23,161 nt of DNA from a virus. Taxonomy: Duplodnaviria > Heunggongvirae > Uroviricota > Caudoviricetes. Shown one piece after another: positions 1-10,853 of the stretch. Numbering within the stretch: position 1 is the first letter of the stretch; each line of letters begins with the position of its first letter. The translations under genes were made by a program, and so were the position numbers. The DNA lies in the IMG/VR virus record IMGVR_UViG_2698536622_000004; one strand, written 5' to 3'. The notes beneath the pieces were generated by a model. That model was not told the origin of the DNA. It was given only the letters and a program-made list of their open reading frames with translations, and searched no databases.

Positions 1-1053
1 TTACGGGGTAATGCCAACCGCTGCCGCCACTTTGTCGCCACTTGGCAGCGTTGCCAGAGGATTGAAACGGAGCGCCGTTTCCAGATGATCCGGTGCCAGA
101 TGTGCGTAACGCATAGTCATTTTTATATCGTGGTGTCCGAGAATTTTTTGTAAGGCCAGAATGTTTCCACCCGACATCATGAAGTGCGCCGCAAACGTAT
201 GGCGCAGAACGTGTGTGAGTTGACCGCGAGGGAGCACGATAGACGTTTTTTCCATCACGGATAAAAATTGAAAATAGCAGTCTGTGAAGAAATTGAACCC
301 ATCAAGCGCCATGATCTCTTCATAAAGCTCTTTACTGATAGGGATGCTTCTGTTTTTCTTCCCCTTCGTTCTTACAAAGGTAATTCGGTATTTGGTCACC
401 TGTGAGCGGGTAAGATTTACGGCTTCACGCCAGCGTGCGCCTGTGCTTAAGCATATCTTAACTACTAGTGCCAGAATTGGGTCCTGACGTTTGCAATCAG
501 CCAGCAATTCAACAATCTGCTCATGAGTAAGCCATGCCATCTCTTTTTCTGCGATGGTGAATTTTCGCATGTTCTCCAGTGGATTCGGATACGACCATTC
601 GCCCAGGCGGGATAGTTCGCTAAAAACACTACTTAGATAGCTTTGCTCCAGGTTAATGGTGACCGGGCTTGCTCCTTTCTTCCATTTCTCGCTGAAGTAG
701 ATCTCACCTGTCAGGCGTTTATCTCGATAGTGGGCAAACATTTTAGAGGTTAGATCAGTTGCAAGGGGATTGCCCAGAGCGTCAACCATCAGCAGCAATT
801 TGTCATAGACATGCTGCCCGGCAGTCAGAGATTTACCATGTAGTTTGAACCATAGCTCAACCACGTCTTTCAGAGTTCGACGATCCACGGATTCACCCAG
901 CCAGGGCTTTGCTTCGGTTTCTTCCATCGTGTGACGCTCAAAAGCCAGAGCTTCGCCTTTGGTGGTGAATTGTTTACGCACACGACGTCCACTACGTCCG
1001 GCAGGGTAACATTCGCAAAGCCATTTTCCTGTGGTGAGTTTTCGTACTGCCAT
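1..1053 (-). CDS. int: Tyrosine recombinase / phage integrase (P2 Int-like), 350 aa
   Basis: Translation carries the conserved C-terminal catalytic region (LRHTFAAHFMMSGGNILALQKILGHHDIKMTMRYAHL, i.e. R-H-x-x...H...Y). Start placed at ATG 1051-1053 (MAVRKL...) with GGAGGG 9 nt upstream, not at the track's upstream ATG at 1131. Stop codon is bases 1-3. Confidence 0.9.
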   Translation of the reverse strand: MAVRKLTTGKWLCECYPAGRSGRRVRKQFTTKGEALAFERHTMEETEAKPWLGESVDRRTLKDVVELWFKLHGKSLTAGQHVYDKLLLMVDALGNPLATDLTSKMFAHYRDKRLTGEIYFSEKWKKGASPVTINLEQSYLSSVFSELSRLGEWSYPNPLENMRKFTIAEKEMAWLTHEQIVELLADCKRQDPILALVVKICLSTGARWREAVNLTRSQVTKYRITFVRTKGKKNRSIPISKELYEEIMALDGFNFFTDCYFQFLSVMEKTSIVLPRGQLTHVLRHTFAAHFMMSGGNILALQKILGHHDIKMTMRYAHLAPDHLETALRFNPLATLPSGDKVAAAVGITP

Positions 1054-1239
1054 AAAAAATGCCCTCCAATAGAGAGCATTTTTACTGTATGTATAACCAG
1101 TGTCAATGTATGAAATCCTGCGACCATACATCTCACTGAAGCCATAATGAAGTTGGCTATTTTTTGCTATGTGAGTATGTGACTTTTGCGGTTAGCCTGC
1201 GGCTCATTGTTATATTAGGCGCAGATATAAAAGCAAAAT

Positions 1240-1431
1240 TTATCGCGAGTTTTTAGTACAGATTTTTTTTGATTTACTAATAGTTCCATCATTGCAAACG
1301 AACTTTCCATCGGAGGTACAGTGAGAGACACCTCCCTTTTTCCCAGAACAAGGATAATTTTTAGCATAGGTAGTTAGTGGGTTTAATAACAAAGAGCATG
1401 ATAAAACCACAAAAAATACCTTACCAAGCAT
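1240..1431 (-). CDS. Small secreted cysteine-rich protein (63 aa precursor; predicted signal peptide, mature ~40 aa with 4 Cys)
   Basis: ATG at 1429-1431 preceded by GGGAGG at 5 nt spacing. N-terminus [23 protein letters not shown] looks like a Sec signal peptide; the mature part is K/G-rich with 4 Cys. Lies 15 nt downstream of the repressor stop on the same strand, so probably co-transcribed with cI and int. Confidence 0.55.
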
Positions 1432-1446
1432 AGTTTCCTCCCGGTA

Positions 1447-2016
1447 TTACCTAACGTACTTAATTGTTAAACTTATAATTTTCCCAATTATTTCAACATC
1501 TCCTATCTTGCACTCGAAGGCTCTGTTTCCACCTTCAACGAAGATTCTTCCACCGGGTAAACGAGTAATGTCGCGGATTGTTATTTCGCCATCAATACTT
1601 ATTACCCATTTACCGTCACGTATATCATCAAATTCTTTATCACAAATAAATTCAGAATTGTTATCTGTGATGACAAAAGGTTTTTTAAACGTAGAGGGTA
1701 GAAATCCCTTATCAAAAATATAAAAACCGTCTTCACGCAAGGCACCATCAGATAATACATATTTAGCAACTTCCATAGTATTTGTATTACCTGAAGTTTG
1801 CTTTGAACCATGTCCGGTTGTGAGCCAATTAAGCGAGGTGCCCGTTTCAAGGGCGCACTGGATTACCCATTCTGCTGGGAATGAGTCACGCATGTAGCGT
1901 GTGGCGAGTGTACTTTTAGAGATTCCTAAATGATCGCACAACGCCTGTCGAGTTTTGAATCCATAAGCTTCTACCATGCGCTCTATAGCGCCTCGTCCGC
2001 CTTTCTCCAAATTCAT
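1447..2016 (-). CDS. cI: 186-type CI immunity repressor (N-terminal HTH, C-terminal oligomerisation domain), 189 aa
   Basis: HTH-like segment TRQALCDHLGISKSTLATRY near the N-terminus; size and position (between int and the divergent early operon) match phage 186 CI rather than the ~99 aa P2 C. Start chosen at ATG 2014-2016 (GGAG 5 nt upstream); the track's 2022 start is a GTG overlapping the SD. Confidence 0.8.
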   Translation of the reverse strand: MNLEKGGRGAIERMVEAYGFKTRQALCDHLGISKSTLATRYMRDSFPAEWVIQCALETGTSLNWLTTGHGSKQTSGNTNTMEVAKYVLSDGALREDGFYIFDKGFLPSTFKKPFVITDNNSEFICDKEFDDIRDGKWVISIDGEITIRDITRLPGGRIFVEGGNRAFECKIGDVEIIGKIISLTIKYVR

Positions 2017-2040
2017 GGTCACTCCAAGTGAACTTTTATC

Positions 2041-2069
2041 TTGACGATTTCACTGTGCGATCGTATGTT
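2041..2069 (+). promoter_or_regulatory. Candidate early lytic promoter (pR-like): -35 TTGACG, 17-nt spacer, -10 TATGTT
   Basis: TTGACG at 2041-2046 and TATGTT at 2064-2069 in the cI/apl divergent intergenic region, oriented toward the early operon. Confidence 0.4.
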
Positions 2070-2141
2070 TATGGTGTTCACAAAATACAAACGATCCGTA
2101 TTCGTCCTGATTAATCATCATTAAACGAGGAATGTTGCATC

Positions 2142-2363
2142 ATGAGACCTAACATTTCAATCACTCTTACCACGCCTCATGTGACTATTGAACGCTATAG
2201 CGAGCTGACAGGGCTGTCCATCGATACCATCAATGACATGTTGGCTGACGGACGCCTTATCCGTCACCGTCTGCGCAAAGATAAAAAACGTGAAAAAGTG
2301 ATGATCAACATAGCAGCCATGACCGTTGATGCGCTTTCAGAATGCAATCTAAACCTTAATTAG
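2142..2363 (+). CDS. Apl/Cox-like small HTH DNA-binding protein (excision/repression control), 73 aa
   Basis: First gene of the rightward early operon. Small basic protein with an HTH-like segment ([22 protein letters not shown]). Assigned by position and size analogy to 186 Apl / P2 Cox. Confidence 0.6.
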
Positions 2364-2395
2364 TTCGATTCTGAAATACATCAGAGGCATTGACC

Positions 2396-2905
2396 ATGTT
2401 TGATTACCAAGTTTCCAAACATCCACATTTTGATGAAGCCTGTCGTGCATTCGCATTGCGCCACAACCTAGTGCAACTGGCAGAACGTGCAGGCATGAAT
2501 GTGCAGATTCTGCGGAACAAGCTGAACCCAGCTCAACCTCATTTATTAACCGCACCAGAAATCTGGTTGCTTACCGATCTGACTGAAGATTCAACGCTGG
2601 TAGATGGCTTTCTGGCACAGATTCAATGCCTGCCATGTGTACCGATTAATGAGGTGGCAAAAGAGAAACTGCCGCATTACGTCATGAGTGCAACTGCAGA
2701 GATAGGGCGTGTCGCGGCAGGTGCGGTTTCTGGCGATGTAAAAACCAGTGCAGGCCGTCGTGATGCGATCAGCAGCATTAACTCTGTTACACGACTGATG
2801 GCGCTGGCTGCTGTTTCATTGCAGGCCCGTTTACAGGCTAATCCTGCGATGGCGAGTGCAGTTGATACCGTGACTGGCCTCGGTGCTTCATTCGGTTTGC
2901 TGTGA
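2396..2905 (+). CDS. cII: CII-like lysogeny-establishment transcription activator (186 CII family), 169 aa
   Basis: ATG at 2396 with AGAGG 8 nt upstream (track start 2390 is TTG). N-terminus [37 protein letters not shown] and the 169-aa length match my recollection of phage 186 CII. Confidence 0.7.
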
Positions 2906-2912
2906 GGTGCTT

Positions 2913-3113
2913 ATGCTGACGAAAGAACCATCATTTGCATCGCTGCTGGTAAAACAAAGTCCGGCAATGCACTACGGTCACGGCTGGATCATGGGTGAGG
3001 ATGGTAAACGCTGGCATCCGTGCCGTTCACAAGATGAATTGCTGGCAGAACTATCAACGAAAAAACGGGGGAACCAATGGCTATTGAAGGCGCTGCGGCG
3101 ACTGTTCCATTAA
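2913..3113 (+). CDS. Hypothetical early protein, 66 aa (occupies the 186 fil position)
   Basis: ATG at 2913 with GAGGTG immediately upstream, 8 nt after the cII stop; the track's 2883 start is a GTG inside cII. No recognisable motif. Confidence 0.45.
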   Translation: MLTKEPSFASLLVKQSPAMHYGHGWIMGEDGKRWHPCRSQDELLAELSTKKRGNQWLLKALRRLFH

Positions 3114-4800: not shown

Positions 4801-7211
4801 GTCATGACGATATGAGCAACTCTAGCGGCTTTAACGAGGCCGCTGCATCATTTTCATGGAACGGCCCGAAAAAGGCCATTAACCCTTATCTGGACCCGGC
4901 GGAAGTTGCGCCGGAGTCTGCACTTTCAAACCTGATCACTCTGTATGTTGCCGATAACGAGCAGGAACAACTGCGCCGCGAGGCACTGAGTGAGCAGGTC
5001 TGGGAGCGTTATTTCTTTAATGAATCCCGTGATCCTGTCCAGCGCGAAATGGAGCAGGATAAGCTCATTAGCCGGGCAAAGCTGGCGCATGAGCAGCAGC
5101 GTTTTAATCCAGACATGGTCATTCTGGCTGACGTCAACGCCCAGCCTTCCCATATCAGCAAGCCGCTGATGCAACGTATTGAATACTTCAGCAGCTTGGG
5201 CAGGCCAAAGGCTTATTCCCGCTATTTGCGTGAGACGATTAAGCCATGTCTGGAACGACTGGAGCATGTACGCGACAGTCAGCTATCCACTTCTTTTCGC
5301 TTTATGGCAAGCCATGAAGGGCTGGACGGCCTGCTGATCCTGCCTGAAATGAGTCAGGATCAGGTAAAACGCCTGTCCACCCTGGTAGCTGCGCATATGA
5401 GCATGTGCCTTGATGCCGCTTGTGGCGATTTATATGCCACCGATGACGTTAAGCCAGAAGAAATCCGCAAGACATGGGAAAAGGTGGCAGCGGAAACCCT
5501 GCGACTGGATGTTATCCCGCCTGCGTTTGAGCAACTCCGCCGGAAAAGAAACCGCCGTAAACCAGTGCCCTATGAACTCATTCCGGGCTCGCTGGCGCGT
5601 ATGCTGTGCGCCGACTGGTGGTATCGGAAATTGTGGAAGATGCGTTGCGAATGGCGGGAAGAGCAGTTGCGTGCTGTCTGCCTGGTCAGCAAAAAAGCAT
5701 CTCCCTATGTCAGCTATGAAGCTGTGATGCATAAACGTGAGCAGCGCCGTAAGTCGCTGGAGTTTTTCCGTTCTCATGAACTGGTGAACGAAGACGGAGA
5801 CGCGCTGGATATGGAAGATGTGGTAAACGCCAGCTGCAGCAACCCGGCGCATCGCCGCAATGAGATGATGGCCTGTGTTAAAGGTCTGGAGCTTATCGCG
5901 GAAATGCGCGGTGACTGCGCCGTTTTCTACACTATTACCTGTCCGTCACGTTTCCATTCCACGCTCAATAACGGCAGACCCAACCCGACCTGGCAAAACG
6001 CGACGGTAAGACAAAGCAGCGATTATCTGGTCGGTATGTTTGCTGCATTTCGTAAGGCGATGCACAAAGCCGGGTTGCGCTGGTATGGCGTGCGGGTGGC
6101 TGAGCCGCATCACGACGGCACAGTTCACTGGCACCTGTTGTGTTTCATGCGCAAAAAAGACCGCCGCGCCATTACTGCATTGTTGCGTAAGTTTGCTATC
6201 CGTGAAGACCGCGAGGAGCTGGGCAATAACACGGGGCCGCGCTTTAAGTCTGAGCTGATTAACCCGCGCAAAGGAACGCCGACAAGCTACATAGCGAAAT
6301 ACATCAGTAAGAACATTGACGGGCGTGGTCTGGCTGGCGAGATCAGCAAGGAAACGGGTAAATCTCTTCGTGATAACGCTGAATACGTGAATGCCTGGGC
6401 GTCTTTGCATCGTGTTCAGCAATTCCGCTTCTTTGGTATTCCGGGGCGTCAGGCTTACCGTGAACTGCGATTGCTGGCTGGTCAGGCGGCAAGGCAGCAG
6501 GGTGACAAAAAAGCAGGTGTGCCGGTACTGGATAACCCGCGCCTTGATGCCATTCTGGCTGCTGCTGATGCTGGTTGTTTTGCCACCTATATCATGAAGC
6601 AGGGAGGTGTACTGGTTCCCCGTAAATATCACCTCATCAGAACCGCTTATGAAATTAACGAAGAGCCGACCGCCTATGGCGATCACGGTATTCGTATTTA
6701 TGGCATCTGGTCACCCATTGCAGAGGGCAAGATCTGCACTCATGCAGTGAAGTGGAAAATGGTTCGTAAGGCCGTTGACGTTCAGGAGGCGGCAGCCGAC
6801 CAGGGCGCTTGCGCCCCTTGGACTCGTGGCAATAACTGTCCCCTTGCTGAAAATTTGAACCAACATGAGAAAGATGAATCAGCAGATGGGGATACCAGAA
6901 CGGACATTACCTGCATGGATGACAAGGAATTGCACGATTACCTGCACAGTATGAGCAAAAAAGAGCGCCGGGAACTGGCAGCAAGATTGCGCCTGGTTAA
7001 ACCGAAACGGCGTAAAGACTACAAACAGCGAATTACAGAGTATCAGCGTCAGCAGCTCGTCTATGAACTGAAGTCCAGAGGATTTGATGGCAGCGAGAAA
7101 GAGGTCGATTTGCTCCTTTGCGGTGGCAGTATTCCGTCAGGAGCAGGCCTGCGTATCTTCTATCGGAACCAGCGTTTGCAGGAAGATGATAAGTGGCGGA
7201 ACCTGTATTAA
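4797..7211 (+). CDS. A: Rolling-circle replication initiation endonuclease (P2 gpA family), 804 aa
   Basis: HUH-type metal-binding motif ([13 protein letters not shown]) and tyrosine-containing segment ([13 protein letters not shown]) typical of gpA-like relaxases. Last gene of the early operon; ATG overlaps the dam stop (ATGA). Confidence 0.9.
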
Positions 7212-7305
7212 TCACGCGGGTTAACAATTCGTGCTCTTAATAATACCAGGCATATCAGGCTGATGAACGTAAAAAAACGTTTTACATCAGTAAGATTATT
7301 ATATA

Positions 7306-7321
7306 CTGTAAATATAAACAG
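7306..7321. promoter_or_regulatory. LexA (SOS) box: CTGT-N8-ACAG within TACTGTAAATATAAACAGTG
   Basis: Matches the enterobacterial LexA consensus TACTGTATATATATACAGTA at the CTGT/ACAG arms with an AT-only spacer. Sits ~45 nt upstream of the small ORF at 7365 and overlaps candidate -10 hexamers (TATACT at 7302-7307). Confidence 0.6.
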
Positions 7322-7364
7322 TGGTTATATGTACAGTATTGCGTATGGTGTTATAGGAGGAAAG

Positions 7365-7553
7365 ATGCAGGACTATTTTTTGGAGTCTTTGAAGCTCCAG
7401 CGCATTGATTTTTTTCTTAAGCTTGTAGCGGCTAGTGAGTGTAGTGATGAAGAGAAGGGGCTAGCTCTGCAGTGGGTTTCTGAATTGACTGATGAGTTGA
7501 TGGCGAAAATTCGAAGCCATGAATACAGTAGGTCGATGGATGTAATCAGTTGA
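7365..7553 (+). CDS. Small acidic protein, 62 aa, downstream of a LexA box; candidate SOS-inducible antirepressor (186 Tum-like position) or other SOS cargo
   Basis: ATG at 7365 with AGGAGG 4 nt upstream. The longer track ORF starting at 7263 would contain the LexA box, so the shorter start is preferred. Followed by a terminator hairpin. Confidence 0.45.
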   Translation: MQDYFLESLKLQRIDFFLKLVAASECSDEEKGLALQWVSELTDELMAKIRSHEYSRSMDVIS

Positions 7554-7585
7554 GCTTGTTTCGTTAGGACTTGATAAGGGAACCG

Positions 7586-7607
7586 AAAAGGGGCATTAAG
7601 CCCCTTT
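7586..7607. terminator. Bidirectional intrinsic terminator-like hairpin (AAAAGGGGC-ATTAA-GCCCCTTT)
   Basis: GC-rich 5-bp core stem extended by A/T pairs, flanked by A-run and T-run. Sits between the stop of the plus-strand small ORF (7553) and the stop of the minus-strand lipoprotein gene (7621). Confidence 0.5.
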
Positions 7608-7620
7608 CTCATAAGTTGAT

Positions 7621-7920
7621 TTAGTTGTTACCCAAAGAGCCGGCCATGGCTGCATATTTAATTTCTTCGCTGGGTATTTCAGGATGTAGTTGAATTTGCC
7701 TGATGATATAGCCAGGAACTTCTTCACTCCACAGTTTCGCCGCGTCCTTACAGACCTTATACGCGAAGTCTCTATTCTCAAAGGCATAGGATTTTCCGTA
7801 TGCATATTGCTGACAGGCATGAACATAAGCTCCGAAGTCGCCGTCTTTATCTGGCAAAGCACATCCAGCTAAGGCTATGATGATTGCTACTAACGTAAAG
7901 GAGAAAGTTATACGTTTCAT
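7621..7920 (-). CDS. Small lipoprotein, 99 aa (lipobox LAGC)
   Basis: N-terminus MKRITFSFTLVAIIIALAGC is a typical lipoprotein signal peptide with lipobox cysteine. AT-rich codon usage unlike the phage core. Confidence 0.6.
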   Translation of the reverse strand: MKRITFSFTLVAIIIALAGCALPDKDGDFGAYVHACQQYAYGKSYAFENRDFAYKVCKDAAKLWSEEVPGYIIRQIQLHPEIPSEEIKYAAMAGSLGNN

Positions 7921-7976
7921 GGTCTCTTTCTAAGCGTTTAGCATTATTTAACTAAGGGGTATCTGCCGTGATTTGG

Positions 7977-8005
7977 TAGTCCCTGATATATATTCTCAGG
8001 GACTA
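7977..8005. repeat. Perfect 10-bp inverted repeat TAGTCCCTGA / TCAGGGACTA with 9-nt AT loop
   Basis: Read directly at 7977-7986 and 7996-8005; lies in the 108-nt gap between the two lipoprotein genes. No clear U-tract, so it may be an operator or RNA processing/attenuator structure rather than a terminator. Confidence 0.4.
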
Positions 8006-8028
8006 TGCTGAAGTAGCTTTAATTTTGA

Positions 8029-8835
8029 TTATTTAGAAAGGTACTTATCTCTAAGTTGATTCAGTCTGTCAGCATCGCGTTCTGAAAACTCGGCGTCACC
8101 ATAGATCGATTTCCCATCTGCGTCTTCAAGGCCAATGACTGTGACGGTAAATATAGCATCAGCCGGAACTTTAAGTTTTCCCCAATCAGAGTATCTATTA
8201 GGGGCTAATTTCCAGTTGGCTTTCTCACCTGGTTCCAGACCTCCAGAAATTTTATAGTTGAAGACGTCAGAGAACCAAGGGACGCTTCTTCCTGGGCTGG
8301 CAATAACTCCTTTGAAGAATACTCTGGCAACCGCTTTGTCTGTTCCGTTTTCAACGCTAATATCCAGAATTGGCTGATCATTGCCGTAATCCTCTTTCTG
8401 GAAATAAAAACGGGAACGTTCGACCTTGAAGGCTTTCATTTTTTCCGCAGCCTGTGTTGCAGAGGTTTGTTTGGCTTCCAGTTCTTTTATTTCTTGCAGA
8501 GCCTGTTCTTTCTCTCTCTTCTCACGCTCAAGGCGAATAGTTTGTGCGTAATTTATAACCTCATCACCAGTTTTACCTTCCAGCGCTGACTTAATTTTTG
8601 TTTCGTAGACGTCCCCAGAAGACGTTCCAGCCTGCATTAGCTCTCTCATGTTGATTTGGCTAAAGGCAACGACTTTAACTGCATCATCAAACTGAGCTTT
8701 TTTATCTGCAGGTAAGGACTCTCTTACTTTTTGAATGGACTCTTTCATCGACTGATCGCTTGATGCATCGATCTTCGGTTTGTCACAAGCAGTAAGCAGC
8801 AGAGCAAAAGCAATTACGCCAGTTAATTTCTTCAT
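8029..8835 (-). CDS. Lipoprotein, 268 aa (lipobox LLTAC), with a Lys/Glu-rich coiled-coil-like segment and a C-terminal domain of unknown function
   Basis: Start placed at the internal ATG (8833-8835) giving MKKLTGVIAFALLLTAC; the track start at 8907 adds 24 residues with no SD. Periplasmic-type composition. Same strand as the 99-aa lipoprotein gene downstream. Confidence 0.6.
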   Translation of the reverse strand: MKKLTGVIAFALLLTACDKPKIDASSDQSMKESIQKVRESLPADKKAQFDDAVKVVAFSQINMRELMQAGTSSGDVYETKIKSALEGKTGDEVINYAQTIRLEREKREKEQALQEIKELEAKQTSATQAAEKMKAFKVERSRFYFQKEDYGNDQPILDISVENGTDKAVARVFFKGVIASPGRSVPWFSDVFNYKISGGLEPGEKANWKLAPNRYSDWGKLKVPADAIFTVTVIGLEDADGKSIYGDAEFSERDADRLNQLRDKYLSK

Positions 8836-9357
8836 ATCCCTATCCCAATCGTAAAAAAACAAGGCTAATCCTAACAGGATTAGCGGGCATGACAAACTCA
8901 TAGCCATATAGGTGTGCTGTATAAATTAGCGGGATGAGAAAGCCTGCACAGACCCTCATGTTGAAACTTGATTTTAGCTCAAAAGAGCTGACACTAAATA
9001 ACTGCGCGGAATAATGCTCCACTTTCGGTTAGCCCTTGGCCCTTGCTGGGTAAGGCGTGGGGCCGTTTTCTTCGCCTGATCCTGCTGTATCTGGCCTACA
9101 GTATGTTGTCCTTACGCGACATGCCACATGTCAGTAAACGGCAGGTGTAGCAGTATTAGACGCAGCTATTTAGTGTGTATTAAGCTGGCTCATATTTATG
9201 ACTGGTTTCAAGGTTTGACCGATTTTCATGTCATGCATGTCTATGCTGCATGAGTTCGCATGATCGTTTGAGGATCGGTTTGGCTAAGACATGCCAGAAC
9301 TGGCGAGCTTTTGCTCATGTCATGCAGGTGCATGAAAACTACTACATAAAGCGGGCA

Positions 9358-9376
9358 GGCGTGGCGGGGATACGAG
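9358..9376. other. Candidate cos (cohesive-end/packaging) site: GGCGTGGCGGGGATACGAG
   Basis: The first 13 nt (GGCGTGGCGGGGA) match my recollection of the 19-nt cohesive ends of 186 (GGCGTGGCGGGGAAAGCAT) and P2 (GGCGAGGCGGGGAAAGCAC). Located in a 590-bp non-coding region between the A-side cargo and the portal gene, where cos lies in P2-like genomes. Confidence 0.4.
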
Positions 9377-9436
9377 CGCGCGCTGTGCTGTGTGGTATAG
9401 GCCTTAATTTAGTATGATTCAATAGTGTCGGGAGCT

Positions 9437-9465
9437 TTGCGCTGATCAGTCCTAAGTTATATGAT
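9437..9465 (+). promoter_or_regulatory. Candidate sigma70 promoter for the GHKL ATPase gene (-35 TTGCGC, 17-nt spacer, -10 TATGAT)
   Basis: Hexamers read directly; about 30 nt upstream of the ATG at 9495. Weak -35. Confidence 0.3.
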
Positions 9466-9494
9466 AAGAAAAATGCATAAAAAAGGTTCGGTTC

Positions 9495-10469
9495 ATGGGG
9501 TTAGGATTAAAAGACGCTATTGTGCATACCGCTGCGTTTCATCAAAAGGAAACTAATGAATTGCAATTGCCAAACAATCATTGGCATCCTGGTTTTATCA
9601 CTGTCTTAGCAGCTTACGTGAATCATCACAAAATTACCGAAGATAACTGTGTTTTGTCATGCCCTGGCTATATGCGAGCTATCAATTTACATGGTGCTTT
9701 ATGGGGAGAGGATCAGTATCAACAGGAACGTGTAAATGTTGGAAGAAATTACAGTTTGGTTACAGCATTAACCAATGTTGAAGCTGTTGACGTTGCCACT
9801 GGTAGTATTAACAGTTGTGTAAGGCAGTTAACATTCCCTGATCGTGATCCGAGAGATTGTCCCAAGGGACTTACAGATCTAACCCATGTTATAGGTGAGC
9901 TTCACGATAACGTTTGGTCGCATGGAAAATCAACGGGTTTTTCTTTTGCACAACGTTCGGCTGTACCCCACACTCAAAAAAAAGAGCACTATTTAGAATT
10001 TTCTTTGGCGGACTGTGGGTTAGGATTTCTCCGAGAATTGCGGCGAGCTGGTATACCCGGAATTGAGACTCACCAGGATGCGATCGCATGGTGTATTCAA
10101 GAGGGACATTCATCTAAGCATGCTGATTTGCAGGATGATTGGGCACAGCAGCTTCCCCAGGACTTTATTGGGGGTAGTGTGTTTGGCCACGGGGTTTCGG
10201 TCAAAGAAAAAGATAATAATCATCAAGGGCTTGGGTTGTATCACTTGATGAAATTGATAAAAACATATAATGGGGAATTGCAACTGGCTTCAGGAAATGT
10301 ATGCTTAGAAGCAATAGGTGATGAAGTGAGCTATACTGAATTACGTACTGAATGGCCGGGTGTAGCAATTTCTTGCCGTTTTAAGATTCATGAACTGGCA
10401 GTCGATAAAGATAGCGAAGAAAATGACCCTCAGCTTATGGAAATAATGCGGGCGTTAGGAGGAGAGTAA
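9495..10469 (+). CDS. Histidine-kinase-like (GHKL/Bergerat-fold) ATPase, 324 aa, with a ~130-aa N-terminal region of unknown function and no DHp/phospho-acceptor domain
   Basis: N-box-like ELHDNVWSH, D/G1-box-like DCGLGF and G2-box-like QGLGLYHL in the expected order. AT-rich. Stop TAA overlaps the next gene's ATG by 1 nt. Confidence 0.7.
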   Translation: MGLGLKDAIVHTAAFHQKETNELQLPNNHWHPGFITVLAAYVNHHKITEDNCVLSCPGYMRAINLHGALWGEDQYQQERVNVGRNYSLVTALTNVEAVDVATGSINSCVRQLTFPDRDPRDCPKGLTDLTHVIGELHDNVWSHGKSTGFSFAQRSAVPHTQKKEHYLEFSLADCGLGFLRELRRAGIPGIETHQDAIAWCIQEGHSSKHADLQDDWAQQLPQDFIGGSVFGHGVSVKEKDNNHQGLGLYHLMKLIKTYNGELQLASGNVCLEAIGDEVSYTELRTEWPGVAISCRFKIHELAVDKDSEENDPQLMEIMRALGGE

Positions 10470-10807
10470 TGAACAAAATCGCATACAAGTTACCCGAGGG
10501 TGACCTGGCTTCGCGCAATCAGGCTATCCCCCAACGACACAAGATTGAAGGGTTCATTAAAGAAGGGTATACCGTAGATTTAGATCTGAGCGGTGTTTAT
10601 TCAATTTCAGAATCATACTCTGATGAAATCTTTGGTGTTTTGGTAGTGAAATTCGGTGTAACCAAAGTTTTGAGTCAAGTTAAGGTTCGCAATGCACCCC
10701 CTTCAATTTTAAAAAGTATTGCAAAAGTGATCCAACGCCGTAGTAATGAAGTAGCATCAAAAAAGGTTCATTCCGTTGGATTTGATGGTTTATACGCCGT
10801 TTGTTAA
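10469..10807 (+). CDS. Small STAS-like protein, 112 aa (DUF4325-like; anti-sigma-factor-antagonist-like fold predicted)
   Basis: Core segment YTVDLDLSGVYSISESYSDEIFGVLVVKFG resembles the DUF4325/STAS-like pattern (hydrophobic-LDF-x-GV...S-x-DE-x-FG). AGGAGGAG SD lies inside the end of the upstream gene, indicating translational coupling. Confidence 0.55.
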   Translation: MNKIAYKLPEGDLASRNQAIPQRHKIEGFIKEGYTVDLDLSGVYSISESYSDEIFGVLVVKFGVTKVLSQVKVRNAPPSILKSIAKVIQRRSNEVASKKVHSVGFDGLYAVC

Positions 10808-10824
10808 TATATGGTTAGTTAGAT

Positions 10825-10850
10825 AAAAGGCGCTGAGATTAGCGCCTTTT
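10825..10850. terminator. Bidirectional intrinsic terminator (AAAAGGCGCT-GAGATT-AGCGCCTTTT)
   Basis: Hairpin with flanking A and T runs, lying between the STAS-like gene stop (10807) and the portal gene stop (10854), which converge on it. Confidence 0.6.
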
Positions 10851-10853
10851 CTT

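What the first reader, a model, noticed from the sequence alone, without database searches (positions are those of the whole stretch)
1240..1431. Small secreted 4-cysteine peptide encoded inside the lysogenic cI-int transcription unit
A 63-codon gene with a strong SD sits 15 nt after the repressor stop and upstream of int on the same strand, so it should be expressed in the lysogen. The product has a Sec-type signal peptide and a ~40-residue Lys/Gly-rich mature region with four cysteines (probably two disulfides). Small secreted cysteine-stabilised peptides in this position could be lysogenic-conversion factors, toxins, bacteriocin-like peptides or periplasmic decoys. It is not part of the canonical P2 or 186 gene set as far as I recall.
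Basis: partly seen in the sequence, partly recalled or inferred. Interest (0 to 1): 0.5.

Follow-up and report, generated by a model that had tools for sequence, protein, structure and literature searches.

The report
Prophage-borne secreted YdcA-family mini-protein
The small gene is real and encodes an exported, disulfide-stabilised 40-residue basic peptide of the widespread but uncharacterised YdcA family, carried as swappable cargo just after the repressor gene of a P2/186-like prophage, where it most plausibly protects the lysogen from the periplasm, although its function is untested.

Summary
A 63-codon ORF (1431→1240, minus strand) has a GGGAGG ribosome-binding site, lies 15 nt after the cI stop, and encodes a signal peptide plus a 40-aa, +7, four-cysteine mature part.

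It is not an orphan. It passes the curated cutoff of NCBIfam NF007463 (YdcA family, PRK10040), matches phrog_6000, and RefSeq already annotates it (WP_001321204.1, also in BL21(DE3)).

The mature core is under strong purifying selection (pN≈0.15, pS saturated). It stays 76–83% identical where the adjacent cI has fallen to 37–39%.

It is AT-rich cargo in a variable cI–int slot. Sister phages carry PD-Lambda-1 or other genes there. HP2 has an unannotated homologue in the same position, and HP1 has different ORFs.

Two clues appear to be new:
- The domain is fused to three unrelated secreted nuclease families.
- It is a remote homologue of the lobes of Legionella Dot/Icm Dis2, an outer-membrane-proximal protein with a solved structure.

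Best guess, at low to moderate confidence: a periplasmic binder of polyanions, probably DNA, that gives superinfection exclusion, analogous in position to Glo of phage K139. A bacteriocin or toxin role is not supported. The function is untested.

The parts
1240..1431 (-). YdcA-family gene (63 codons plus stop). Signal-peptide codons are 1363-1431 and the mature 40-aa peptide is 1243-1362.
   Evidence: ORF listing. NF007463 116 bits against cutoff 93. phrog_6000 E=5e-34. RefSeq WP_001321204.1, named 'YdcA family protein' or 'hypothetical protein'. Purifying selection.
1437..1442 (-). Shine-Dalgarno GGGAGG, 5 nt upstream of the ATG, inside the 15-nt cI-peptide intergenic region (1432-1446).
   Evidence: Read directly from the sequence.
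1447..2022 (-). 186-type CI repressor gene, immediately upstream and presumably co-transcribed.
   Evidence: Pfam Phage_CI_repr E=3e-33 and Phage_CI_C E=3e-28. This allele is present in 648 of 5,426 complete E. coli genomes, against about 640 for the peptide gene.
1132..1446 (-). Variable cargo slot between the cI stop and the conserved int-proximal module. In this window it holds only the peptide gene and a 108-nt 3' region.
   Evidence: Alignment with 813R9, 4LV2017 and BL21 shows conservation across different cargoes starting at about 1131. GC is 35% for the gene against 52% for the window.
1054..1083 (-). 13-bp hairpin followed by a U-run that ends at the int AUG. The int SD (GGAGGG) lies in the 3' arm. 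Possible terminator, attenuator or translational operator separating cI+peptide from int.
   Evidence: RNA fold of 1040-1250 has z=-3.75. The stem is kept through compensatory changes in 813R9. The consensus terminator scan did not flag it.
1078..1106 (-). Promoter-like site TTGACA-17-AAAAAT upstream of int, overlapping the 5' arm of the hairpin.
   Evidence: Consensus scan, 10 of 12 matches. Conserved in relatives. Function not tested.
1..1053 (-). P2-type tyrosine integrase, downstream on the same strand.
   Evidence: Pfam Int_N and Phage_integrase. 99% identical to int of phages 813R9 and 4LV2017-like phages.

Best explanation
Shown here: the ORF is a genuine, selected gene of the YdcA family (NCBIfam NF007463, Pfam PF27300, phrog_6000). 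It is AT-rich, horizontally exchanged cargo (a 'moron') in the variable slot directly downstream of cI in a P2/186-like prophage. It travels almost 1:1 with this cI allele in about 12% of complete E. coli genomes, including BL21(DE3). Inferred: it is transcribed from the lysogenic promoter together with cI and translated from its own strong SD. It is then exported by Sec, cleaved after TYA, and oxidised to a two-disulfide, +7 mini-domain of 40 residues that stays in the periplasm near the outer membrane. Proposed mechanism (inference): the domain is a small binding module for a phosphate-rich polymer, most likely DNA. In the lysogen it would act as a periplasmic superinfection-exclusion or DNA-entry barrier, either by binding incoming nucleic acid or by binding the envelope site through which it enters. 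This would be functionally analogous to, but not homologous with, Glo of Vibrio phage K139. My confidence that it is a real, exported, lysogen-expressed cargo protein of this family is about 0.9. The figure given below is for the full mechanistic proposal.
For: Family membership and coding reality. The signal peptides diverge freely while the 33-aa core is nearly invariant from Gamma- to Alphaproteobacteria. Position: the gene lies 15 nt after cI with a strong SD and no terminator. The same position immediately after cI is seen in Haemophilus HP2/S2 (ATG overlapping the cI stop), in Yersinia and Buttiauxella prophages, and, after XRE-type repressors, in P2-like prophages of Comamonas, Iodobacter and others (13 of 80 species loci). 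The mature peptide is 76-83% identical where the neighbouring CI is 37-39%. Slot logic: sister phages with 97-99% identical int carry the validated defence gene PD-Lambda-1 in the same slot (E=3e-120). K139 encodes periplasmic Glo, annotated as involved in phage exclusion, between cI and int (PMC4870250 citing Nesper 1999). Ligand clue: the domain is the N-terminal module of secreted SNase (E=5e-24), Endonuclease_NS (E=8e-33) and PLD/NucT-type nuclease (E=5e-19) proteins. These are three unrelated nuclease superfamilies and the only enzymatic partners found. It also occurs in 2-3 tandem copies, as expected for binding a polymer. The invariant K32/GG and S-x-S-K-K motifs and the net charge of +7 fit phosphate binding. 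Localisation clue: the domain is a remote homologue of the lobes of Legionella Dis2, a disulfide-pinned protein resolved next to the outer membrane (PMC8486379).
Against: No experiment addresses expression, export, ligand or phenotype for this protein. PADLOC has no model matching it. The nuclease fusions represent only three or four independent events among the 150 best representatives. They would be equally explained by an envelope-anchoring module. Dis2, the only relative with a structure, binds proteins (DotK, DotC, DotD), not DNA, and is not basic (PMC12716638). A conserved 133-aa paralogue sits in T6SS clusters, which points to an envelope-machine role. The only reported phenotype for chromosomal ydcA is sensitivity to 3-hydroxypropionate and induction at pH 5 (PMC7642389), which is not phage-related. 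Most family members are chromosomal and not obviously prophage-borne. Phage DNA is normally shielded while crossing the periplasm.
Confidence: 0.3

Rival explanations
1. Envelope-adaptor reading. [quoted passage not shown] It tethers partner domains or machines there. The prophage copy would alter envelope properties, for example stress or acid tolerance, receptor accessibility, or the activity of T4SS, T6SS or pili. It would not bind nucleic acid.
For: Dis2 is a structural subunit of the Dot/Icm outer-membrane cap and contacts DotK, DotC and DotD (PMC8486379, PMC12716638). The homology is supported. A long-form paralogue is conserved inside T6SS clusters of 14 enterobacterial species. Deletion of chromosomal ydcA sensitises E. 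coli W to 3-HP, and the gene is reported as induced at pH 5 (PMC7642389). Secreted nucleases often carry anchoring modules.
Against: No fusion to peptidoglycan hydrolases, proteases or other typical envelope enzymes was seen. Every identifiable enzymatic partner is a nuclease. The YdcA subfamily is strongly basic with invariant Lys and Ser residues, unlike Dis2. No partner gene is co-conserved with the short form.
Confidence: 0.3
2. Antimicrobial reading. The product is a cationic, disulfide-stabilised bacteriocin- or toxin-like peptide released by lysogens to kill competitors.
For: Its size, charge (+7) and four cysteines resemble defensin-like or class II peptides. It is prophage cargo expressed in the lysogen.
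Against: The 315-bp slot has no room for an immunity or export gene. There are no bacteriocin family hits. Sec export alone ends in the periplasm of a Gram-negative cell. A paralogue is a core K-12 gene without an immunity partner (PMC11340327). The same domain is a building block of nucleases and of a T4SS subunit.
Confidence: 0.05
3. Natural-transformation reading, a variant of the DNA-binding idea. The peptide sequesters DNA in the periplasm to block transformation, and so protects the prophage from being deleted by recombination.
For: The phage-record hits are concentrated in naturally competent genera: Moraxella (20 records), Acinetobacter, and Haemophilus HP2/S2. There are further chromosomal copies in Neisseria and Pasteurellaceae. 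The next gene in HP2 encodes a secreted OB-fold (tRNA_anti-like) protein. The PLD fusion is closest to NucT, a transformation-associated nuclease.
Against: The most abundant carriers are E. coli, Yersinia and other Enterobacterales that are not naturally transformable under usual conditions. The enrichment was not tested statistically.
Confidence: 0.1
4. Non-functional reading. The ORF is a chance or decaying open frame with no product.
For: It is short and AT-rich. Several database entries are frameshifted (P0037, P0053, P0058).
Against: pN/pS is about 0.2 or less with saturated pS. Four Cys and 10 other positions are invariant. It passes a curated HMM cutoff. It is retained intact in the decayed BL21 prophage. 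It has a strong SD.
Confidence: 0.02

Closest known systems
YdcA of E. coli K-12 (b1419) and the YdcA family (NCBIfam PRK10040: NF007462/NF007463/NF007464; Pfam PF27300; PHROG 6000)
   Same: Same architecture: a signal peptide plus one roughly 35-aa domain with four invariant Cys and the motif PCSGxKGG[VI]xxC...F[VI]CxDGxxSxSKKxC. The mature part is about 68-70% identical to K-12 YdcA. The window protein passes the NF007463 cutoff. The function of the family is unknown (PMC11340327).
   Different: It belongs to the NF007463 subgroup, not the K-12 NF007462 subgroup (68 bits against a cutoff of 118). It is prophage-borne, directly downstream of cI, rather than at the chromosomal rydC-ydcA-hokB locus.
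Glo of Vibrio cholerae phage K139 (P2/HP1-like)
   Same: A small signal-peptide-bearing periplasmic protein encoded between cI and int in the lysogenic (PL) operon of a P2-like phage, annotated as involved in phage exclusion (PMC4870250).
   Different: No sequence similarity (BLASTP E=0.17 in a pairwise comparison). Glo is 137 aa with a different Cys pattern. An exclusion phenotype has not been tested for the window protein.
Dis2 (Lpg0823) of the Legionella pneumophila Dot/Icm T4SS (PDB 7MUC/7MUD)
   Same: Each of its two lobes carries the family motif CCSKMGGINYC...LVCNNGFYS / CCLWRGGV...LVLCNDGSIS directly after a signal peptide. It is disulfide-pinned and periplasmic, next to the outer membrane. 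It is the top PDB hit by profile HMM (E=0.03), by phmmer with P0066 (E=0.04) and by Foldseek (prob 0.82). hhalign gives E=1.6e-5. The orthologue P0306 is labelled PF27300 and hits NF007462 at E=3e-4.
   Different: Dis2 has two lobes with five disulfides, is not basic, is a stoichiometric subunit of a T4BSS, and is encoded away from prophages. The similarity is remote and each single score is borderline. The papers describe Dis2 as having no homologues.
Cargo ('moron') genes of P2-like prophages, e.g. old, tin and fun(Z) of P2 (from established knowledge), and PD-Lambda-1 in phage vB_EcoM-813R9
   Same: AT-rich accessory genes in fixed variable slots of an otherwise conserved P2-like genome, expressed from the prophage. 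The very same cI-int slot holds PD-Lambda-1 in 813R9.
   Different: Those are cytoplasmic defence proteins with known phenotypes. This is an exported 40-aa peptide with no known phenotype and no PADLOC model.

Membership tests
YdcA family (NCBIfam NF007463 / PRK10040.1-2) | Whole-protein HMM score above the curated cutoff | tested here: met
   116.1 bits against a cutoff of 93, E=4e-34, covering model positions 1-58 of 58.
YdcA family (Pfam PF27300) | Match to the Pfam model | tested here: inconclusive
   The local Pfam copy lacks PF27300, so there was no hit. The 97%-identical cluster representative P0001 and nearly all homologues carry the precomputed PF27300 label.
YdcA family | N-terminal signal peptide followed by a single small domain with four invariant cysteines and the KGG / SxSKK motifs | tested here: met
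   Alignments A1-A4: C28, C38, C46, C58, P27, S29, K32, G33, G34, F44, G49, S52, S54 and K55 are invariant.
PHROG 6000 (phage protein family of unknown function) | Profile match over the full length | tested here: met
   E=4.6e-34, model positions 1-56 of 56.
Periplasmic superinfection-exclusion proteins of P2/HP1-like phages (K139 Glo type) | Encoded between cI and int on the lysogenic strand | tested here: met
   Window gene order compared with the K139 annotation.
Periplasmic superinfection-exclusion proteins of P2/HP1-like phages (K139 Glo type) | Sequence homology to Glo | tested here: not met
   Pairwise BLASTP E=0.17.
Periplasmic superinfection-exclusion proteins of P2/HP1-like phages (K139 Glo type) | Periplasmic localisation and an exclusion phenotype | not testable with these tools
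   Only a predicted signal peptide is available. Fractionation and phage-challenge experiments are needed.
Dis2 (Dot/Icm T4SS outer-membrane-cap subunit) | Sequence or fold similarity of the lobe | tested here: inconclusive
   Dis2 is the consistent top hit by four methods, but each is borderline: E=0.03, E=0.04, Foldseek prob 0.82, hhalign E=1.6e-5 at 79% probability, NCBIfam E=3e-4.
Dis2 (Dot/Icm T4SS outer-membrane-cap subunit) | Two-lobe architecture with five disulfides and association with a T4BSS | tested here: not met
   The window protein has a single domain with four Cys. The window holds no T4SS genes and is a P2-like prophage.
Sec-dependent bacteriocins / peptide toxins | Adjacent immunity or export gene, and homology to known bacteriocin families | tested here: not met
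   The cargo slot is 315 bp and holds only this gene. There are no bacteriocin hits in Pfam, NCBIfam or PHROGs.
Known anti-phage defence systems (PADLOC-DB v2) | Match to a defence-system model | tested here: not met
   0 families at E<=0.01.
Bacterial lipoproteins | Lipobox [LVI][ASTVI][GAS]C at the end of a 15-25-aa signal peptide | tested here: not met
   VLSC at residues 9-12 has Leu at -2 and is preceded by only a 7-residue hydrophobic stretch. Cys12 is not conserved, whereas Ala at -1 of the TYA|K site is conserved in at least 90% of homologues.

The most novel reading that the evidence does not exclude
The YdcA/PF27300 module is a previously unrecognised extracytoplasmic nucleic-acid-binding mini-domain, about 33 aa with two disulfides. 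Bacteria attach it to secreted nucleases and, in Dis2, to a DNA-transfer-related T4SS. Temperate phages of many Proteobacteria deploy it alone from the repressor operon as a periplasmic 'DNA trap' that excludes superinfecting phage genomes or blocks transforming DNA.
Probability: 0.2. Interest if true: 0.7.

Novelty: new member of a known kind. Interest (0 to 1): 0.42.

Why it matters
The gene sits in about 12% of complete E. coli genomes, including the workhorse strains BL21(DE3), NEBExpress and ATCC 8739. It belongs to a family of at least 1,758 sequence clusters with no assigned function, which includes the K-12 y-gene ydcA.

Two leads turn an anonymous small ORF into a hypothesis that simple assays can test. 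The first is the recurrent placement in the lysogeny operon of P2-like prophages across three proteobacterial classes. The second is the exclusive fusion of the domain to nucleases, together with its kinship to the structurally solved but functionally obscure Dis2. The assays would be DNA binding, phage challenge and transformation.

If the peptide is an exclusion factor, it would add a very small, exported class to the prophage defence repertoire, which current defence-finder tools do not detect. If instead it is an envelope adaptor, it would inform the role of Dis2 and of a conserved T6SS-cluster gene.

Tried and rejected
- The AFDB50 Foldseek library was unavailable.
- The first viral-contig scan returned only near-identical E. 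coli prophages and was uninformative for diversity, although at least 535 contigs were positive.
The rerun with A4 listed only single-domain top hits, so a systematic census of domain architectures could not be obtained.
- PADLOC gave no hit.
- Pfam's local copy gave only a meaningless sub-threshold GULLO2 hit. A weak lpg1681 hit (E=0.11) was disregarded.
- Low-complexity-like matches to LDL-receptor class A repeats and lysozyme in the PDB search were rejected as cysteine-pattern noise.
- Homology to K139 Glo was rejected.
- The Nesper 1999 paper is not held. A literature search for accession numbers and locus tags found nothing.
- Rfam found nothing in 1-3000.
- The consensus terminator scan found no minus-strand terminator between the gene and int, although folding reveals a conserved hairpin plus U-run.
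- The overlapping 50-aa ORF 1215..1367 is the alternative frame seen only in frameshifted database entries, and I regard it as spurious.
- A lipoprotein reading was considered and rejected.
- A zinc-binding reading of the four Cys is unlikely for an exported protein, because its relative Dis2 shows disulfides (PMC8486379).

Full report
**1. Observation**

The finding's coordinates hold. On the minus strand an ORF runs from ATG 1431 to TAA 1240 and is 63 aa. The 186-type repressor gene cI (1447-2022, minus strand; Pfam Phage_CI_repr E=3e-33 and Phage_CI_C E=3e-28) stops 15 nt upstream. Those 15 nt contain GGGAGG, 5 nt before the ATG.

The P2-type integrase gene (1-1053, minus strand) follows 186 nt downstream. 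The product has a normal Sec signal peptide: MLGK, then a 12-residue hydrophobic core, then NPLTTYA|K. The mature part is 40 aa, 4.26 kDa, pI 9.6 and about +7, with 8 Lys, 5 Gly and 4 Cys.

**2. It is a real gene of a catalogued family**

The protein scores 116 bits against NCBIfam NF007463 (PRK10040.1-2; cutoff 93). It matches phrog_6000 end to end at E=5e-34. RefSeq annotates the identical protein (WP_001321204.1) as 'YdcA family protein' or 'hypothetical protein'. Near-identical database entries carry Pfam PF27300.

The family is large. A profile search found 461 clusters at 50% identity and 1,758 clusters at 90% identity. Members occur in Gamma-, Beta- and Alphaproteobacteria.

In alignments the signal peptides are unalignable. 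The core PCSGKKGG[VI]SHC..GKF[VI]CNDG[ST]xSKSKKxC is nearly invariant, including all four Cys. On the 31-32-codon core, synonymous sites are saturated (pS 0.82-0.90) while pN is 0.15-0.18. That settles the gene's reality.

The E. coli K-12 paralogue YdcA (57 aa) is described only as a predicted periplasmic protein of unknown function (PMC11340327). Its deletion sensitised E. coli W to 3-hydroxypropionate, and it is reported as induced at pH 5 via YdcI (PMC7642389). No functional study of the family was found.

**3. Genomic status: cargo in a variable slot, tightly linked to cI**

The gene is 35% GC (GC3 30%) against 52% for the window and 56% for the late genes. This cI allele occurs in 648 of 5,426 complete E. 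coli genomes. The peptide gene occurs in about 640, so the two are almost perfectly linked while cI diverges to 87%. Carriers include BL21(DE3), where a decayed prophage next to rcdA still keeps int, the peptide gene and cI.

No Escherichia, Salmonella or Klebsiella phage record contains the gene. At least 535 IMG/VR contigs do.

Phages whose int is 97-99% identical carry other genes between cI and int:
- vB_EcoM-813R9 carries a 558-aa PD-Lambda-1 defence protein (PADLOC E=3e-120).
- 4LV2017 carries a 349-aa hypothetical protein.

Alignment shows that conservation among these phages resumes about 80 nt upstream of int. The slot is therefore roughly 1132-1446.

The same logic holds in Haemophilus phages. 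HP2 and S2 have an unannotated 60-aa homologue whose ATG overlaps the cI stop, followed by a secreted OB-fold protein. HP1 has four unrelated small ORFs there.

Among 80 species-level loci, 13 have the gene downstream of, and co-oriented with, a CI- or XRE-type repressor. These are Escherichia, Yersinia, Buttiauxella, Comamonas, Iodobacter, Deefgea, Oceanisphaera and Hydrogenophilales, and six of them have P2 gpD nearby. Where the neighbouring CI is only 37-39% identical, the mature peptide is still 76-83% identical.

In Moraxella and Acinetobacter phages the gene sits among late genes. This fits a moron that is captured repeatedly.

**4. Transcription context**

No terminator separates cI from the gene, so co-transcription from pL is the natural inference.

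Downstream, the RNA folds more stably than shuffled sequence (z=-3.75). The main feature is a 13-bp hairpin followed by a U-run that ends at the int AUG and contains the int SD. The stem is preserved by compensatory changes in 813R9. A promoter-like TTGACA-17-AAAAAT site overlaps its 5' arm.

The operon may therefore effectively be cI plus peptide, with int attenuated. This is an inference. The consensus terminator scan did not flag the hairpin.

**5. Clues to what the domain does**

(a) *Fusions.* Among the 150 best family representatives, the YdcA module follows a signal peptide and precedes a linker plus one of these domains:
- SNase (P0097, E=5e-24; nearest to EcnA/NucI).
- Endonuclease_NS (P0169 E=8e-33, P0164, P0177, and the full-length ORF in L131).
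- PLD-type nuclease (P0162, E=5e-19; nearest to NucT).
- A sub-threshold HNH match (P0190).

No other enzyme class was found. Two- and three-fold tandem repeats also occur.

- Profile HMM, E=0.03.
- phmmer with the tandem member P0066, E=0.04.
- Foldseek, top two of 350,542 chains, prob 0.82.
- hhalign, E=1.6e-5.

In addition, a Dis2 orthologue is labelled PF27300, and its second lobe hits NF007462 at E=3e-4. Dis2 consists of two similar lobes pinned by five disulfides. It lies next to the outer membrane, contacts DotK, DotC and DotD, and is dispensable. It is described as lacking homologues (PMC8486379, PMC12716638). I regard the homology as probable but remote.

(c) *A paralogue in T6SS clusters.* A 133-aa long form lies after tssE in 14 enterobacterial species.

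(d) *Positional precedent.* K139 encodes the periplasmic exclusion protein Glo between cI and int (PMC4870250). Glo is not homologous to this peptide.

**6. Interpretation**

Shown: this is a selected, exported-type YdcA-family gene carried as swappable cargo immediately after cI.

Inferred: it is expressed in the lysogen and resides in the periplasm as a two-disulfide basic mini-domain.

Proposed: it is a binding module for a phosphate-rich polymer, most likely DNA, given three independent fusions to unrelated nucleases, the tandem repeats, and the invariant Lys, Ser and Gly motifs. In the lysogen it would provide exclusion of incoming DNA. I put this at about 0.3.

An equally serious rival (about 0.3) is an outer-membrane-proximal adaptor or anchor, as suggested by Dis2 and the T6SS paralogue. 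A transformation-blocking variant gets about 0.1, a bacteriocin or toxin role about 0.05, and a spurious ORF less than 0.02.

**7. Novelty and score**

The entity itself is already annotated and belongs to a known family, although an uncharacterised one. To my knowledge from the searchable literature, three points are new:
- The recurrent position in the lysogeny operon.
- The nuclease-only fusion pattern.
- The link to Dis2.

That makes it a useful, testable lead rather than a surprise. Interest is 0.42.

Noticed in passing
window 1054-1106 (minus strand): A 13-bp hairpin plus U-run ends exactly at the int start codon and sequesters the int SD. It is overlapped by a TTGACA-17-AAAAAT promoter-like site. 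The stem is kept by compensatory changes in phage 813R9. It could terminate or attenuate pL read-through, while a local promoter yields hairpin-free, translatable int mRNA.
   Followed up: partly
window 7212-10853: A second AT-richer cargo region (42.5% GC) lies between the replication gene A and the portal gene, at the P2 tin/old position. It holds a 292-aa DUF6694 protein (8029-8907, minus strand) and a two-gene cassette: 324 aa with no Pfam hit (9495-10469) plus a 112-aa DUF4325/STAS-like protein (10469-10807) with a weak hit to part of DrmA. This is a candidate defence cassette.
   Followed up: partly
L001 2920-3102 (Haemophilus phage HP2, NC_003315.1, complement of about 2487-2669): An unannotated 60-aa YdcA-family ORF whose ATG overlaps the cI stop codon. 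The published annotation shows a gap there. It is also present in phage S2 but absent from HP1.
   Followed up: yes
L106, L122-L130, L135-L138, L148, L153, L155-L158, L166 (genome loci around position 6000): A roughly 133-aa long form of the YdcA domain, with a conserved C-terminal CAPLYMxxKPGYTHLPICSGNQY tail, is embedded in T6SS clusters after tssE in 14 enterobacterial species. In 12 of them a PD-Lambda-1-like gene (DUF4041 + T5orf172) lies immediately downstream.
   Followed up: partly
PDB 7MUC/7MUD chain AN; P0306, P0307: Legionella Dot/Icm Dis2 (Lpg0823) is published as Legionella-specific with no homologues. It appears to consist of two tandem YdcA/PF27300-like lobes.
   Followed up: partly
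P0056, P0057, P0060-P0062, P0107, P0121, P0127, L140, L142, L146: Many betaproteobacterial members carry a second Cys-rich module, CxCxxxxxC[TA]GPRGGxYCxxxxGxKxY, after the YdcA domain (the NF007464 type). It is only weakly similar to Pfam PBCV_basic_adap (E=0.006) and is otherwise unassigned.
   Followed up: no
L004 (E. coli CFSAN061772, NZ_CP042893.1): In this genome ogr/gpD late genes lie directly next to int. The cI-peptide module occurs at two places in the record, which suggests tandem or duplicated P2-like prophages.
   Followed up: no
window 1215-1367 (minus strand, alternative frame): A 50-aa ORF overlaps the peptide gene. Its sequence appears only as the tail of frameshifted database entries (e.g. 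P0037, P0053, P0058), so it is probably not a gene.
   Followed up: partly
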